Assembly (NCBI GenBank): GCA_016840855.1
Contig: JAEORO010000069.1
Span: 74,952 to 138,951 of the forward strand
Source of the DNA: Candidatus Thorarchaeota archaeon
GTDB taxonomy: Archaea > Asgardarchaeota > Thorarchaeia > Thorarchaeales > Thorarchaeaceae
Reading direction: 5' to 3'
DNA length: 64,000 bases
A program made the position numbers and the translations under genes. The notes under the pieces were generated by a model, which saw only the letters and a program-made list of their open reading frames with translations, was not told where the DNA came from and did not search any database. Below are positions 53,589 through 59,600 of the stretch, one piece after another; position 1 is the first letter of the stretch, and each line of letters begins with the position of its first letter.

Positions 53589-54818
53589 CTACATCCATTC
53601 GAATGCTTTGTTCCATGTTACACTTGAACCGGAATAAGGATTCATATAGACAGTCTTGAAGAAATCAGGGAGTAAATCCTTCTGCGATGCCTTGAGAAAT
53701 GTGGGATATACGAAATTTGTTCGTCCTATGAAGTAAGTGAAAATATATGGCGCGAAGAAATTAATTTTTCCTTCCTTGTTTGTCGGAGATATGAAATCTA
53801 TTGATGCCTCAGCAGACTCTCGAGATCTGTAACCTCTGTTCTGCAGATAATCTATTGCCTCTTCGACAGATTTTCTTTCATCATTTAGAAGGATTGCTGC
53901 ATTGATTTGAGTCATTCTTCGGAGAGGATTTAATGCGTTCAAAACCAAGATTCGGGGATCGTCTTCTGAAACTCCAAGGAATTCTTTTGCTGTATCAGCA
54001 GTACCTTCTGAGATGACGCATCGACCTGTATGAAGAGGGACAATTGACAGCTCAAGATTTCCAGTCTTCAGATATGCTTTCTCTCGCCAAAGATTTGAAA
54101 CATGATGTTCATATTCATGATATATTGTAGCCTGCAAAGTATCTCTGTTGAACTTCCTATCGATGTTAAATTGATTCAGAGATTTGAATCCACCAAGATA
54201 CCAATTATAACCACCCCAAGGTTGGTTTCTAACGGCTTCATATTGAACACCCATATCAGGTACTGAAGCACCTATCACTGCATAGATTTTATCACGAAAC
54301 TCTTGACCTATTTCTATTCCTCGTTGTTGGAGCTCAGTCTCAAGTAGCTTTTGAAGAGAGTCACCAGTAACCTCACCCTCCTTTCCAAAATTATCTATCT
54401 TTTCTTGAAGATCTTTACCTGGAAAATTTTCCATTACATCACTAAGTGTTTCTATATTCTTGTCAATCTCATGCTCCGAAAACTTCTCCATCGATATATG
54501 AAAGAGACCCTCAACAAGCTCAGAGTACGAAATCTCCTTTCCATCTAACCAATCCAGAATTACATTAAGGGAGTGCAACTCACCCATCATGAATTCAAGT
54601 CGAAGTGTATCATCAATCTCATCTCTAAGTGCATCAAGAGCTAGATGGATGTCGTGGACGATATCTGATACGGGTTTTTCCTTTTCTGATGTTCTTGGAT
54701 TGAACTCCTCAGGTCCAAAGTATGCATCCACAACACTTACACCAGTCAACCTTTCGGTATAAGCCCCAACTTCACCGGTGATTTTGACAAATCTTTCAGC
54801 AGCATTCATTGTAACCAC
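53589..54818 (-). CDS. Putative zinc metallopeptidase (gluzincin, DUF885-like)
   Basis: HExxH (YHEYEHH) with downstream ISEGTA third ligand, PWGGYNWYLGG and YIFTYFIG. No signal peptide. Confidence 0.65.
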   Translation of the reverse strand: MVTMNAAERFVKITGEVGAYTERLTGVSVVDAYFGPEEFNPRTSEKEKPVSDIVHDIHLALDALRDEIDDTLRLEFMMGELHSLNVILDWLDGKEISYSELVEGLFHISMEKFSEHEIDKNIETLSDVMENFPGKDLQEKIDNFGKEGEVTGDSLQKLLETELQQRGIEIGQEFRDKIYAVIGASVPDMGVQYEAVRNQPWGGYNWYLGGFKSLNQFNIDRKFNRDTLQATIYHEYEHHVSNLWREKAYLKTGNLELSIVPLHTGRCVISEGTADTAKEFLGVSEDDPRILVLNALNPLRRMTQINAAILLNDERKSVEEAIDYLQNRGYRSRESAEASIDFISPTNKEGKINFFAPYIFTYFIGRTNFVYPTFLKASQKDLLPDFFKTVYMNPYSGSSVTWNKAFEWM

Positions 54819-54952
54819 TTCATGAAATGATATGCCAACCTATAGTGTTTACCCTTAAAGCCACCAGAAGTCTTAGTCAGTTACTGATTTCATATTCGTA
54901 GATATAATTCTATGAAGGGTCTTTCATCGCTTAGTGCGACAGAATCTATGAA

Positions 54953-57085
54953 TTACCTAAATCCTCCTGAAACGCATGCACTGTGACAAGCGCTATGGCA
55001 AGCACTATGGCAAACGCATGCACTGTGACAAGCGCTATGACAAGCGCTATGACAGGCATCATGGGAAACGCAAGCACTATGACAGGCATCATGAGAAACA
55101 CACCTGCTTGTGCTTTCAATTAATGGCTTGAGAGGAGCTGTTATGATGTTACCAACACCTTCTAAGACACTTCCAATTGTACTGGTAACATTGTTCATAA
55201 TCTGCCCTGTGGTTGTTGCCACATCACCCACAACTCGACCAACCCCACTGATAGCATGGCCTGTTGCCTCAGAAAGCTGTGAGAACCAGTCAGGAACATG
55301 AGGAGGAGAGATTGACGGTCCGGGTTTTGCAAAGACATCACCGATATGATCATGCTGTGGATGCATGTAAAGCCAATACCAGGCCCATCCTCCACCATGA
55401 AACTGACGATTGAAATAGTAATCCATCCTTCCATCTAAGGTAGGATATGACTCCAATTCTTCCCAAGCTCCATCAACCATTTCGTCATGTTTTGCCTTGG
55501 TTGCCTCAAAATCTGCACTCCAAGCTTTTTCTTGTACTTTCTCAGCTAACTCTTCGAGCATATCATCTATCTTATCCGAATCAAGTTCATCGCCAACAAT
55601 TGATTCAACAAACAGCTCTTCATAATATGTTAAGTCCTGAAATTGGAGGCCCGTTACTGAGAGCTTCAATGGATCTGTGGACAATACACGGACAGCACCT
55701 TTTTTCACACATGACATGAGGATCATTGAAACGAGTCTTTGTCGTGTGGTGTTCATGAAGAATGCTGATTCAATTGGATCTAGCTCTGCCACCACTCCAG
55801 GTTCACCAAATGTTTGGATAGCAATTTCAGGACTCTCATATACGTAGGTGGTTTCATCTGCGTCCCATTTTGCACCATAAGTACGTGTCACTCTTTTGTA
55901 ACCATAGAAGATGAATCCAAGTGAAACAAAGATAGCAGCTCCGCCAAACAGTAATGTTGGTGGAATTAATGGTGGTATGTACTCTTGAACGTAGACATCA
56001 ATTGTGAAGAAGAGCCAGTCTGAGGAGTTTAAATTCGAAGCACTAACTTGGAAGGCAATAGTAAGAATAGCTGGCACATTTGCAGGGACTATTGAATAGG
56101 ACTCGTATGAGGTTTCACCACCAGAAAGGGTTCCAACAAAAGTTGTCACTGATCCAGATGTGAGTGTTAGATTCTCAGGGAGCGAAATAGTGATTGTTAC
56201 ATCTTCCAGGTTGGCATCACCAAAATTGAAAACAATAAGCTGTAAGTTGAACGATGTATCTGCTTTAGCGTTGATTATTGGATCATAATCAATACCAAGA
56301 GCCCCAGGTTCGAGATAAGGTGAATAGAAACTCCAATTGGTATAATGAAAGACTCTGAAGTGATCATACGCAACTAGGTTTGAATGACCAAGACTAACTG
56401 TAAAATATCGTGGATCAGCTCCAACATCATATGGATAAGCTAAAAGATTCTCTTCATCAAAATCGATTCTAGTGCTGCTACGCCACAATCCTTGGTTTTC
56501 ATCAACAACGTAGCCAGCATACTCAGCTCCCTCCACGGTGACACCATTTGACGGTTCAATCCAAGATGAATTCATCTCAATTGGATATATTACTTGGACG
56601 GCTTCATAGTCGATTGGGATTTCCCATTGAACAGGAGCCCAATTGAGAACTCCAAGATCCCCGTAAGTAGGCGATGATGTAAATTCAATCACACGATTCG
56701 TGCTAAAATAACCAAAGACAACAAGGACTTTTTCTCCTTCTGGAGTTCTGGGGACCCAATCTAGACCATAACCAGTTGAAAGAGTAGTGATTAAGAGGTC
56801 GTACCGATTGCCGCCCCATTCAGCATATGCACGGTCATTATCATATATCGTTGATTCTTGAATTCCCAGTAAATCGAATCCTCCTAGACCACCCTCAGCC
56901 GCAGTAAAAGTCATCCAATACGTAACATTAATTCGTCCATTGGGCATTACTACAACATCAACATTCACGCTATCTAAATTTGGGTTAGCACTTGGTATAC
57001 TACTTGCATAGGAAATAGATTGCATCTGGAGTAATGAAAGAACAAGTACTCCAATTAGTAACGTATTTACCAAGCCTTTCTTCAC
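54953..57085 (-). CDS. Single-pass membrane protein (DUF2207-like N-terminus, Ig/CARDB-like domain) with C-terminal Cys/His repeat tail; putative radical SAM substrate
   Basis: Signal peptide, beta-rich ectodomain, one TM ([19 protein letters not shown] then KR), helical cytoplasmic region and tail [49 protein letters not shown]. Confidence 0.85.
   Translation of the reverse strand: [710 protein letters not shown]
54968..55102 (-). repeat. Coding tandem repeat encoding (CHSA)n / CVSHDA
   Basis: 12-nt units with synonymous variation. Identical 28-bp blocks at 54970-54997 and 55012-55039, and 17-bp blocks at 55047-55063 and 55077-55093. Confidence 0.95.
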
Positions 57086-59081: not shown

Positions 59082-59087
59082 ACGCAC

Positions 59088-59600
59088 TCACTCGTTTCTA
59101 GGAATACCGTAGTACGTCCACATACTCACAGGAGCACCTGCAAGTTTTAGATACATCCACAGCTGCATCTTGTGCATCGCTAAATGAGTTGTAATCTCAG
59201 GCAGGTAATGAGCCCAATTCCTATCGGGACCTTGTTCATAGACTGCCTTCAGATTCTCTTCGAGAGCTTGATCGTTTGACAATGCAGATATGTGCTCTTT
59301 GATAATACCTATTCCTTTGTCAAAGACTTTTAGCATACCCTCAATATTGTCACTCTTTAGTTGCTGTTCCATCTCTTGGATCTGTTCAACCTCTTGGAAT
59401 TTCTTTGTATAGCAATAAAAGTCAATCAACGGAGATAGAGCAAGGTGATTAGCCAGATCGTCGAGTGTACGAAGCGAATCCATCGGAGTAAATTGCATGT
59501 CTACATCTTTCACAGATGCAAGTACAAATCTCGCTTGCGAACTCTCATGCTCGAGCATATGTAATAGGATCGAAGGAATTGTATCCATTTCTAAAACCAA
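59088..59600 (-). CDS. DinB/YfiT-family protein
   Basis: FTP..SLRTL..LANHLA and HLAMHKMQLWMYLKLAG His pattern of the DinB superfamily. Confidence 0.8.
   Translation of the reverse strand: MVLEMDTIPSILLHMLEHESSQARFVLASVKDVDMQFTPMDSLRTLDDLANHLALSPLIDFYCYTKKFQEVEQIQEMEQQLKSDNIEGMLKVFDKGIGIIKEHISALSNDQALEENLKAVYEQGPDRNWAHYLPEITTHLAMHKMQLWMYLKLAGAPVSMWTYYGIPRNE

What the first reader, a model, noticed from the sequence alone, without database searches (positions are those of the whole stretch)
53589..59600. Candidate new system: RRE-radical SAM/SPASM enzyme plus a membrane protein carrying a RiPP-like Cys/His tail, with peptidase and DinB neighbours
Seen: a PqqD/RRE-like + CxxxCxxC + SPASM enzyme (57651-59081) is divergent from a two-gene unit, a ~131-aa hypothetical followed by a 710-aa single-pass membrane protein. 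The last 49 residues of that protein hold 11 Cys and 9 His. Downstream on the same strand is a cytosolic HExxH metallopeptidase, and a DinB-family gene converges on the rSAM. I found no separate short precursor ORF and no pqq, mft or ahb genes in the window. It is established that RRE-rSAM/SPASM enzymes (CteB, PapB, PqqE, AlbA) modify peptides, often forming Cys-to-carbon thioethers. Signal peptide plus one TM followed by KR puts the tail in the cytoplasm, where the enzyme is. Inference: an archaeal RiPP-type pathway whose precursor is fused to a surface receptor-like protein. The product would be either a cross-linked or metal-loaded signalling domain, or a peptide released by proteolysis.
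Basis: partly seen in the sequence, partly recalled or inferred. Interest (0 to 1): 0.92.

Follow-up and report, generated by a model that had tools for sequence, protein, structure and literature searches.

The report
Radical-SAM enzyme paired with Cys/His-tailed membrane protein
A peptide-modifying type of radical SAM enzyme sits beside a large membrane protein whose inward-facing end is an almost unchangeable cysteine/histidine repeat, and the same gene pair recurs in archaea and bacteria, so the enzyme most likely modifies the tail of a whole protein by chemistry nobody has tested.

Summary
Window 57651-59081(+) encodes a PqqD/RRE + radical SAM + SPASM enzyme. It is divergent from a 131/143-aa ORF followed by a 710-aa protein with a signal peptide and one TM. 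The last 49 residues of that protein hold 11 Cys and 9 His, arranged as H-[S/D]-A-C units.

The pairing is not chance:
- Starting from the enzyme, 43 of 53 Thorarchaeota-type loci and 24 of 26 Anaerolineae loci carry the tailed protein next door. The other 12 are cut at a contig end.
- Starting from bacterial tail proteins, 75 of 80 metagenome loci have the enzyme directly downstream. The other 5 have 111 nt or less of flank.

The tail is 99% identical within Thorarchaeota and 83% identical to Chloroflexi, where the rest of the protein is 11-29% identical. Its DNA varies freely at synonymous sites.

The HExxH and DinB neighbours are lineage-local and not part of the system. A TM + wHTH + Zn-ribbon protein (63022-63774) is a likelier third component.

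No family library or paper I could search describes the system. The nearest precedent is CrpC/CrpA (2026). The chemistry is untested; thioether cross-links on a retained tail are my best guess.

This scan has noted the same system before on other genomes.

The parts
54953..57085 (-). 710-aa membrane protein with a signal-peptide-like N-terminus, an outward domain, one TM (residues 374-392) and a cytoplasmic region of about 310 aa. It is the presumed substrate protein.
   Evidence: No Pfam or NCBIfam family. Orthologue next to the rSAM in 43 of 53 Thor-type and 24 of 26 Anaerolineae loci.
54956..55102 (-). Tail of 49 residues, [49 protein letters not shown], with nine H-[S/D]-A-C units, 11 Cys and 9 His. 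It is the presumed core that is modified.
   Evidence: Identity 99.4% within Thor and 82.6% to Chloroflexi. 20833 synonymous against 434 non-synonymous codon-pair differences.
57651..59081 (+). 476-aa radical SAM enzyme with an N-terminal PqqD/RRE-like domain (residues 41-97), a CxxxCxxC core and a SPASM domain. Family-invariant Cys in the SPASM part: C349, C363, C381, C418, C421, C427, C431.
57137..57568 (-). 131/143-aa soluble protein of unknown family, upstream of and on the same strand as the membrane protein. It is an accessory component in some lineages.
   Evidence: Present in every Thor-type locus that has the flank. A homologue lies directly upstream of the tail-protein gene in 6 of 80 bacterial metagenome loci. 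No family or atlas match.
63022..63774 (-). 250-aa protein with two TM segments, winged-helix-like repeats and a C-terminal CPxCG...CPxCG zinc ribbon. It is a probable third component, displaced here by inserted genes.
   Evidence: Found in 45 of 53 Thor-type loci, and directly after the rSAM in 5 of them. Homologous to a 163-aa protein in the Chloroflexi operon (hhalign 94.5%, E 8e-8; alignment). Small Zn-ribbon membrane proteins flank the cassette in 12 of 23 other Asgard cassettes. Against: the profile hit 0 of 80 bacterial metagenome loci.

Best explanation
The rSAM/SPASM enzyme and the membrane protein form an enzyme-substrate pair.

The membrane protein is inserted with its large N-terminal domain outside and its C-terminal region of about 310 aa in the cytoplasm. 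This topology is inferred from the signal peptide, the single TM and the KR that follows it. The enzyme's PqqD/RRE domain docks on the cytoplasmic region upstream of the tail (inferred). The radical SAM core then modifies the nine H-[S/D]-A-C units one after another.

The most likely chemistry is Cys-sulfur-to-carbon thioether cross-links (sactionine or ranthionine type). This is inferred from what characterised SPASM enzymes do to Cys-rich substrates.

The modified tail stays on the full-length protein. It would give a rigid, cross-linked and possibly metal-binding cytoplasmic module on a receptor-like protein.

Shown here: the gene linkage, the extreme protein-level constraint on the tail, and the enzyme's domain make-up. 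Not shown: binding, catalysis, the type of bond, and the biological role.
For: Linkage from the enzyme side. The tail protein is adjacent in 43 of 53 Thor-type loci and 24 of 26 Anaerolineae loci. All 12 others are cut within 500 nt of the rSAM.

Linkage from the substrate side. The rSAM is directly downstream in 75 of 80 metagenome loci found with bacterial tail proteins. The other 5 have 111 nt or less of flank.

Within the window's own taxonomic family, 58 genomes have both genes. 51 of them carry the pair within 3 kb on one contig. At least 16 listed genomes lack both, among them genomes that are 97-98% complete.

In 28 loci around more distant Asgard rSAM homologues, 23 have a Cys-tail membrane protein next door, of (CA)n..GGGR or ACH type.

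In a quick tree of 58 rSAMs, the 33 that sit next to ACH-type tails form one side of a branch with SH-aLRT 100. That group cuts across Thorarchaeota, other Asgard, Chloroflexota and metagenome bacteria.

Tail constraint.

Spacing in the tail: His to Cys(+3) holds for 711 of 759 His in 82 distinct tails. Cys(-1) to His holds for 644.

Enzyme make-up: PqqD in 40 of 40 members, Radical_SAM in 40 of 40, SPASM in 39 of 40. The best solved relatives include the thioether maturases SkfB (84.5 bits) and CteB (55 bits).

Precedent: CrpC installs thioether links on the protein CrpA (PMC13692751, abstract and sections 8 and 14 read).

No peptidase or exporter is conserved with the pair.
Against: There is no biochemical evidence of any kind.

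The enzyme reaches no curated maturase family. PapB scores 88 bits against a cut-off of 340, TIGR04115 33 against 350, and TIGR04463 55 against 525.

Its top NCBIfam scores are to heme and cofactor enzymes such as AhbD, NirJ2 and PqqE, and a lipid enzyme (Tes, 81 bits) is among its best solved relatives. Sequence similarity therefore does not single out thioether chemistry.

In the window's own protein the PqqD match is below Pfam's cut-off (21.2 against 23.4), and no fold could be computed to confirm an RRE.

The invariant His in every unit is not explained by a simple Cys-thioether model. It fits metal binding equally well.

Five of the 28 distant Asgard rSAM homologues have no tail neighbour.

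One single-contig genome (G368) has the tail protein but no rSAM at E<=1e-60.
Confidence: 0.5

Rival explanations
1. The same enzyme-substrate pair, but a different chemistry on the retained tail. Examples are a His-Cys or His-carbon cross-link within each H-x-x-C unit, epimerisation, or oxidation of Cys to another group that then chelates a metal.
For: His is as invariant as Cys, and the constant spacing is His to Cys(+3): 711 of 759 His, against 644 for Cys directly before His. The enzyme belongs to no known thioether maturase family. SPASM enzymes are known to perform many reaction types (recalled background; review titles seen in the listing).
Against: Related cassettes with (CA)n..GGGR tails have no His at all yet keep a homologous enzyme, so His cannot be the universal reaction partner. 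Every characterised SPASM enzyme acting on a Cys-rich substrate that I know of makes thioethers (recalled; CrpC in PMC13692751).
Confidence: 0.2
2. The tail is an unmodified metal- or iron-sulfur-binding module. The rSAM acts on something else (a lipid, cofactor or other protein) and uses the membrane protein only as a partner, anchor or electron or cluster donor.
For: Eleven Cys and nine His in 49 residues is a typical metal-ligand make-up. The rSAM's best solved and curated matches include a lipid synthase (Tes, 81 bits) and cofactor enzymes. The partner is a membrane protein.
Against: All 40 family members carry a PqqD-type peptide-binding domain. Lipid and heme enzymes lack it as far as I recall. 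The enzyme clade tracks the tail type, not the host. Plain metal-binding tails usually drift in length and sequence, whereas this one is fixed nearly residue for residue across two domains of life.
Confidence: 0.12
3. This is a classical RiPP route. The tail is modified, then cut off by a peptidase (the HExxH protein in Thorarchaeota, an InhA-like peptidase in Chloroflexi) and released as a free peptide.
For: An HExxH ORF lies downstream on the same strand. A different MA-clan/InhA-like peptidase is in the Chloroflexi operon.
Against: The two peptidases are unrelated (hhalign probability 0.8%). The HExxH profile and the InhA-like profile each hit 0 of 80 bacterial cassettes. HExxH is missing from Thor-type loci L025, L032 and L047 although the flank is present. 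No exporter recurs. A 660-aa 'leader' that includes a membrane anchor and an outward domain is conserved together with the tail.
Confidence: 0.08

Closest known systems
CrpC/CrpA of Methanococcus voltae (enzyme family TIGR04463; Dieter et al. 2026, PMC13692751)
   Same: An RRE + radical SAM + SPASM enzyme is encoded next to a protein-sized substrate whose C-terminal part carries repeated Cys motifs. The modification (thioether) is made on a protein, not on a short peptide.
   Different: It is a different enzyme family: TIGR04463 scores 54.8 bits here against a cut-off of 525. CrpA is a soluble 29-kDa protein with ten 17-residue repeats and C-X-X-Q/D motifs. Here the substrate is a 710-aa membrane protein with 4-residue H-[S/D]-A-C units. 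Its overall Cys content is under 2%, which would not pass that paper's Cys-content filter as described in its section 8.
Sactipeptide and ranthipeptide maturases (SkfB, CteB/SCIFF, PapB/freyrasin, AlbA)
   Same: The domain order and the Cys-rich core are the same. SkfB and CteB are among the best solved sequence relatives. The CVSHD stretches fit the C-X3-D acceptor spacing that I recall for PapB.
   Different: All scores are far under the family cut-offs: PapB 88 against 340, StsB 107 against 625. There is no short precursor, no conserved leader peptidase and no exporter.
CXXX-repeat radical SAM target system (NCBIfam TIGR04115 'rSAM_Cxxx_rpt' and TIGR04117 'Syntroph_Cxxx')
   Same: It is a catalogued but untested pairing of an rSAM with a target built of Cys-every-fourth-residue repeats.
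   Different: Both membership tests fail here. The enzyme scores 33.4 bits against a cut-off of 350, and the target model gives no match in the genome at E<=10.
Pfam PF27846
   Same: 14 of 91 relatives of the membrane protein, all with ACH[S/D] repeat tails, carry this precomputed label on record. Some library therefore already models this repeat.
   Different: The family is not in the Pfam copy available here. I could neither read its description nor score the window's tail. The Thorarchaeota relatives listed carry no such label, but those examined (P0264, P0265) are cut short of the tail.
TIGR04222 membrane proteins with Cys-bearing Ser/Gly-rich C-terminal tails, linked to MNIO enzymes (PMC12452194)
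   Same: The concept is the same: a whole membrane protein whose low-complexity Cys-containing C-terminal tail is proposed as the substrate of a RiPP-type enzyme. That proposal is also bioinformatic only.
   Different: The enzyme class differs (MNIO, not radical SAM). The tails there are predicted to be periplasmic and are variable, mostly in Actinomycetota. TIGR04222 does not match this protein.

Membership tests
RRE-dependent radical SAM/SPASM peptide maturases (general class) | CxxxCxxC radical SAM core | tested here: met
   C135, C139 and C142 are invariant in 40 sequences. Pfam Radical_SAM scores 98.9 bits against a cut-off of 29.5.
RRE-dependent radical SAM/SPASM peptide maturases (general class) | C-terminal SPASM domain with its Cys ligands | tested here: met
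   Pfam SPASM scores 28.6 bits against a cut-off of 21.5 and matches 39 of 40 members. Invariant C349, C363, C381, C418, C421, C427 and C431. No Cys follows C431, so one auxiliary cluster may have an open or non-Cys ligand (inference).
RRE-dependent radical SAM/SPASM peptide maturases (general class) | N-terminal PqqD-like RiPP recognition element | tested here: inconclusive
   In the window's protein PqqD scores 21.2 bits, below the cut-off of 23.4. It matches 40 of 40 family members at E<=0.001, best 5e-11. There is no solved-structure sequence match for residues 1-115. No fold was obtained (structure prediction unavailable).
RRE-dependent radical SAM/SPASM peptide maturases (general class) | Adjacent gene encoding a substrate with the residues to be modified | tested here: met
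RRE-dependent radical SAM/SPASM peptide maturases (general class) | SAM-dependent modification of that substrate | not testable with these tools
   This needs co-expression or reconstitution followed by mass spectrometry.
Named maturase equivalogs (PapB NF047865, StsB NF045574, WgkB NF050035, ACGX TIGR04340, GeoRSP TIGR04303, HxsC TIGR03977, mycofactocin TIGR03962, PqqE TIGR02109) | Score above the curated cut-off | tested here: not met
   Scores against cut-offs: 88 vs 340, 107 vs 625, 93.5 vs 650, 100 vs 400, 117 vs 400, 109 vs 268, 104 vs 265, and 134 vs 381.
CrpC family TIGR04463 (rSAM_vs_C_rich) | Score above the curated cut-off of 525 bits | tested here: not met
   54.8 bits on the window's rSAM.
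CXXX-repeat system (TIGR04115 enzyme, TIGR04117 target) | Enzyme and target above their cut-offs | tested here: not met
   The enzyme scores 33.4 against 350. The target model has no match in the genome at E<=10.
Heme and heme d1 radical SAM enzymes AhbC, AhbD, NirJ | Score above the curated cut-off | tested here: not met
   AhbD 154.6 vs 500, NirJ2 138.9 vs 500, NirJ 113.6 vs 515, AhbC 108.9 vs 650. The matches cover the rSAM core only, from residue 129 onward.
Tetraether lipid synthase Tes (NF045702) | Score above the curated cut-off | tested here: not met
   89.9 bits against 450.
DUF2207 (PF09972) membrane proteins | Match to the N-terminal domain model | tested here: inconclusive
   The window's protein gives no match at E<=0.01. 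A Chloroflexi homologue scores 23.1 bits against a cut-off of 24.4. 4 of 91 relatives carry a precomputed PF09972 label.
TIGR04222 domain membrane proteins | Match to the TIGR04222 model | tested here: not met
   No match for the whole protein at E<=0.01, nor for the C-terminal 311 aa at E<=10.
Pfam PF27846 | Match of the tail to the model | not testable with these tools
   The family is absent from the local library. 14 of 91 relatives carry it as a precomputed label.

The most novel reading that the evidence does not exclude
This is a cassette shared by archaea and bacteria in which a radical SAM enzyme turns the cytoplasmic tail of a receptor-like membrane protein into a ladder of nine or so small cross-linked rings built on H-x-x-C units. 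The rings could involve His as well as Cys. The modified tail would act as a protein-borne metal- or redox-active module that couples an outward sensing domain to an intracellular read-out, perhaps through the co-located TM/winged-helix/Zn-ribbon protein. That would be a RiPP-type modification used for signalling on a whole protein, not for making a secreted peptide.
Probability: 0.2. Interest if true: 0.85.

Novelty: new variant of a known kind. Interest (0 to 1): 0.7.

Why it matters
RiPP-type radical SAM enzymes are known almost only from short secreted peptides. Enzymatic thioether links on real proteins have very few tested cases (QHNDH as cited in, and CrpA as tested in, PMC13692751).

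This pair is widespread: 138 of 400 Asgard genomes carry an rSAM homologue at E<=1e-60, and it also occurs in Anaerolineae and in many metagenome bacteria. It moves between domains of life as a unit, and its target sequence is under near-absolute constraint.

The substrate is obvious, and its cytoplasmic part is predicted to be soluble (no further TM segment), so the chemistry can be tested directly by co-expression and mass spectrometry. A result would define a new protein modification. It would also give a first handle on the function of a large set of uncharacterised DUF2207-like membrane proteins with Cys-repeat tails.

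Tried and rejected
Complex prediction of the rSAM with residues 590-710 of the membrane protein, three 4Fe-4S clusters and SAM. 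Score 0.00, controls not run, no verdict. It gives no information either way.

Structure prediction of the rSAM. No fold, no fold search and no structural check of the RRE were therefore possible.

RNA evidence. No RNA holder was listed for 54953-59081, and read laying was not used.

Protein atlas for the 131-aa protein. The best score was 0.81, below any useful level.

Solved-structure sequence searches:
- N-terminal 115 aa of the window's rSAM: two chance-level hits, E 0.35.
- N-terminal 115 aa of a Chloroflexi rSAM: none.
- HExxH protein: only weak coiled-coil hits, E 0.0035 or more.

Pfam and NCBIfam on the membrane protein, its tail, the 131-aa protein, the HExxH protein, a bacterial tail protein (P0130) and the bacterial 328-aa downstream protein. 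Nothing reached a cut-off.

Hypotheses considered and rejected:
- HExxH and DinB as parts of the system.
- The 400-aa coiled-coil protein and the InhA-like peptidase of the Chloroflexi operon as general parts. Each profile hit 0 of 80.
- The tail as a product of recent DNA slippage.
- The antisense ORFs over the tail (54946-55119 and 54976-55131) as genes. They are by-products of the repeat.

One look-up of earlier findings by words failed because I gave too many words. I did not repeat it.

Full report
**What is there**

The window comes from a Thorarchaeota (Asgard) genome. That follows from the source names on the near-identical rSAM hits and the record titles of the related loci.

- The rSAM (57651-59081, +, 476 aa) has the CxxxCxxC motif at C135/C139/C142. 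Pfam scores are Radical_SAM 98.9 bits, SPASM 28.6 bits (cut-off 21.5), and a PqqD match at residues 41-97 of 21.2 bits, just under the cut-off of 23.4.
- Divergent from it, 82 nt away, is a soluble ORF of 143 aa, or 131 aa from the ATG where the orthologues align.
- Next comes a 710-aa protein with a signal-peptide-like start, a single TM at residues 374-392 followed by KR, and no other hydrophobic segment.
- Its last 49 residues are [49 protein letters not shown], with 11 Cys and 9 His. Eleven of the protein's 12 Cys lie there.
- Neither the membrane protein, the small ORF nor the downstream HExxH ORF matches any Pfam or NCBIfam model.
- No Cys-rich small ORF lies in the intergenic gaps.

**Is the tail real?**

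Tandem Repeats Finder sees 12-, 30- and 42-nt periods in the tail DNA, so slippage was worth excluding.

Among 39 Thorarchaeota-type copies every tail DNA is different, with a mean pairwise nucleotide identity of 77%. Even so, 27 of the 39 encode the identical 49 residues and the rest differ at one position. Of 36309 codon pairs, 20833 differ synonymously and 434 non-synonymously. For the 49 codons just upstream the counts are 15943 and 11482.

In an alignment of 20 Thor-type and 19 Chloroflexi homologues with the window's protein, identity to the window's protein by region is as follows:

| Region | Within Thor | To Chloroflexi |
|---|---|---|
| Tail | 99.4% | 82.6% |
| Rest of the protein | 47-74% | 11-29% |

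This is one of the most constrained stretches I have seen in a low-complexity tail.

**Linkage, tested in both directions**

Starting from the rSAM, a scan of one genome per species returned 79 loci.

- Of 53 Thor-type loci, 43 have the membrane protein and the small ORF divergent from the rSAM. The other 10 have 495 nt or less of upstream DNA.
- Of 26 Anaerolineae/Chloroflexota loci (rSAM 46-53% identical), 24 have a full-length homologue of the membrane protein directly upstream on the same strand. It has a signal peptide, an outward domain, one TM and a tail reading ...[54 protein letters not shown]. The other two loci start inside or within about 80 nt of the rSAM.

Starting from the substrate, I aligned 17 bacterial ACH[S/D]-tail proteins and scanned metagenome contigs with the alignment.

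- All 80 loci returned encode the membrane protein.
- 75 have the rSAM directly downstream (37-48% identical to the window's).
- The other five end within 111 nt of the stop codon.

Within the Asgard phylum, 138 of 400 genomes have an rSAM homologue at E<=1e-60, and 89 match the membrane-protein profile at E<=1e-5.

In the window's own family:
- 63 genomes have the enzyme, 62 have the membrane protein, and 58 have both.
- In 51 genomes the two lie within 3 kb on one contig. In one they are 6.5 kb apart. In six they are on separate contig ends.
- At least 16 listed genomes of the family lack both, including ones 97-98% complete and a single-contig genome.

The pair is therefore dispensable, and it is gained or lost together.

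Against the pattern, 5 genomes show only the enzyme and 4 only the membrane protein. Most of these are fragments. G368, a single contig, has the membrane protein and no enzyme at the threshold used.

**A wider family**

An exhaustive search with the cytoplasmic 311 aa found 143 cluster representatives. Their ends fall into a few types: (ACH[S/D])n...CVSGG[A/S]H, (CA)n...GGGR, and CVCACVSCACACA...SGGAG.

I fetched 28 loci around more distant Asgard rSAM homologues (32-47% identity).
- 23 have a Cys-tail membrane protein adjacent: 20 of the (CA)n..GGGR type and 3 of the ACH type.
- 5 have none. These come from two taxonomic families.

I built a quick, unfinished maximum-likelihood tree of 58 rSAMs. 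Thor, Chloroflexi and metagenome rows were subsampled (every third or fourth). The 33 enzymes beside ACH-type tails form one side of a branch with SH-aLRT 100. That group includes Thorarchaeota, three other Asgard lineages, Chloroflexota and metagenome bacteria. All 20 enzymes beside (CA)n tails lie on the other side.

The enzyme clade therefore follows the tail type, not the host. That is what an enzyme-substrate pair moving as a unit would give.

Caveats:
- Relatives share labels.
- The metagenome rows were chosen by their tail pattern.
- The careful tree search did not finish.

**Anatomy of the tail**

In 82 distinct ACH-type tails (7-13 Cys each), 711 of 759 His have Cys at +3 and Ala at +2. 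Ser (563) or Asp (113) is at +1. Only 644 His have Cys directly before them.

The unit is therefore H-[S/D]-A-C. The occasional V or VS insertions fall between units. The tails end in C-V-S-G-G-x or C-V-S-R-F.

**What else belongs**

The HExxH ORF and the DinB-like ORF do not belong.
- DinB is in 11 of 53 Thor-type loci, and HExxH in 30 of 53.
- HExxH is absent from L025, L032 and L047 although the flank is present.
- Neither has a counterpart in the Chloroflexi neighbourhoods (hhalign probability below 3%).
- Profiles of both hit 0 of 80 metagenome cassettes.
- The Chloroflexi operon has its own, unrelated InhA-like peptidase. That one also hits 0 of 80.

Two other genes look like lineage-specific accessories.

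The 131-aa protein is present in all Thor-type loci with flank. It recurs directly upstream of the membrane-protein gene in 6 of 80 metagenome loci, at 37-41% identity.

It has two TM segments, winged-helix-like repeats and a Zn ribbon.
- It is in 45 of 53 Thor-type loci and directly follows the rSAM in five of them.
- In this window the DinB-like, D-Ser-dehydratase-like, ARPP-1 and a surface-protein gene are inserted between it and the rSAM.
- It is homologous to a 163-aa protein found by clustering in 12 of 26 Chloroflexi loci (hhalign 94.5%, E 8e-8).
- Small Zn-ribbon membrane proteins flank 12 of the 23 other Asgard cassettes. Three of these were in the profile used.
- Its profile hits 0 of 80 bacterial metagenome loci, so it is not universal.
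- In 39 of those 80 loci a different 328-aa membrane protein follows the rSAM.

No exporter or shared peptidase recurs.

**What the enzyme resembles**

No NCBIfam model is reached. The top scores are AhbD 154.6 against a cut-off of 500, NirJ2 138.9 against 500 and PqqE 133.9 against 381. Peptide maturases lie between 84 and 117 bits, far under their cut-offs. A bacterial family member behaves the same way.

- TIGR04115 (CXXX-repeat maturase) scores 33.4 against 350, and its target model TIGR04117 finds nothing in the genome.
- TIGR04463 (the CrpC family) scores 54.8 against 525.
- Among solved structures, a family profile best matches SkfB (84.5 bits), the lipid enzyme GDGT-MAS/Tes (81.3), BlsE, PqqE (73.1), CteB (55.1) and SuiB (40.5).
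- PqqD is matched by 40 of 40 family members.

**Mechanism**

The most economical reading is an enzyme-substrate pair. The RRE docks on the cytoplasmic region before the tail. The rSAM core modifies the H-[S/D]-A-C units. The product stays on the protein, because nothing for cleavage or export is conserved and the 660-aa 'leader' co-varies with the tail.

The linkage, the constraint and the domain make-up are shown. Binding, catalysis and bond type are inferred.

Thioether formation is favoured by precedent. CrpC makes such links on the protein CrpA (PMC13692751; abstract and sections 8 and 14 read). SkfB and CteB are relatives.

The invariant His is not explained by that model alone. It leaves room for other chemistry or for metal binding by the modified or unmodified tail.

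**Known or new**

Five full-text searches found no paper on this system. They covered:
- Thorarchaeota together with rSAM, SPASM and RiPP terms.
- The tail strings.
- DUF2207 with radical SAM.
- (CA)n strings, 'CXXX repeat', TIGR04115 and TIGR04117.
- PF27846, TIGR04222 and the NCBIfam names.

 The hits for the strings were unrelated papers.

Two papers give parallels:
- CrpC/CrpA.
- The proposal that TIGR04222 membrane proteins with Cys-bearing tails are MNIO substrates (PMC12452194, passages read).

Fourteen of 91 relatives carry a precomputed Pfam label, PF27846, on ACH[S/D] tails. That family is not in the library here. The repeat is therefore probably catalogued already, but I could not read or test the entry.

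Earlier notes of this scan describe the same system in other genomes. I had reached the pairing and the CrpC paper before reading them. From them I took the leads TIGR04115, TIGR04117, PF27846 and TIGR04222, and I tested those that could be tested.

**Verdict**

I class it as a new variant of a known kind: a RiPP-type rSAM/SPASM maturase acting on a Cys-rich target, here the cytoplasmic tail of a full-size membrane protein. It has wide distribution and its chemistry is untested.

Noticed in passing
window 63022-63774 (-): A 250-aa protein with two TM segments, winged-helix-like repeats and a C-terminal double CPxCG zinc ribbon. It is syntenic with the rSAM in 45 of 53 Thor-type loci and homologous to a gene in the Chloroflexi operon.
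   Followed up: yes
window 59088-62938: Four genes lie between the rSAM and the Zn-ribbon gene: a DinB-like gene, a D-Ser-dehydratase/alanine-racemase-fold gene (59663-60838), an ARPP-1 domain gene (60909-61727, PF20208 136 bits) and a 409-aa surface protein rich in N-x-S/T with a C-terminal TM (61709-62938). Their presence varies among Thor-type loci, so they look like insertions into an older rSAM / Zn-ribbon arrangement.
   Followed up: partly
L054-L078 (Chloroflexi loci), e.g. L054:9901-11268: Selenocysteine synthase SelA (PF03841, 483 bits) converges on the Chloroflexi cassette in 15 of 26 loci by clustering. This is probably synteny by descent, but it is an odd neighbour for a Cys-repeat system.
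   Followed up: no
L089-L168, e.g. L148:10023-11009: A 328-aa multi-pass membrane protein of no known family directly follows the rSAM in 39 of 80 bacterial metagenome cassettes.
   Followed up: partly
L082, L087 (family f14) and L084, L182, L183 (family f23): Asgard rSAM homologues at 33-37% identity have no Cys-tail neighbour. In f14 a membrane-protein profile match lies on another contig in 8 genomes. These may be a subfamily with an unlinked or different substrate.
   Followed up: partly
G368:C1:1231855-1233375: A single-contig Thorarchaeota-family genome has a membrane-protein match (profile positions 204-712 in a 781-aa frame) but no rSAM at E<=1e-60. This may be a case of enzyme loss, or a more diverged enzyme.
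   Followed up: no
L085:4826-5884 (G127): In one Asgard lineage a 352-aa ORF of no known family lies between the ACH-tail protein and the rSAM.
   Followed up: partly
window 54946-55131: Two ORFs of 51-57 aa, one on each strand (54946-55119 minus, in another frame; 54976-55131 plus), overlap the tail's coding DNA. They are by-products of the repeat, not genes.
   Followed up: yes
window 50838-53330: A DUF6159-like membrane protein (50838-52205) and an M29 aminopeptidase (52308-53330) are syntenic with the cassette within Thorarchaeota only.
   Followed up: partly
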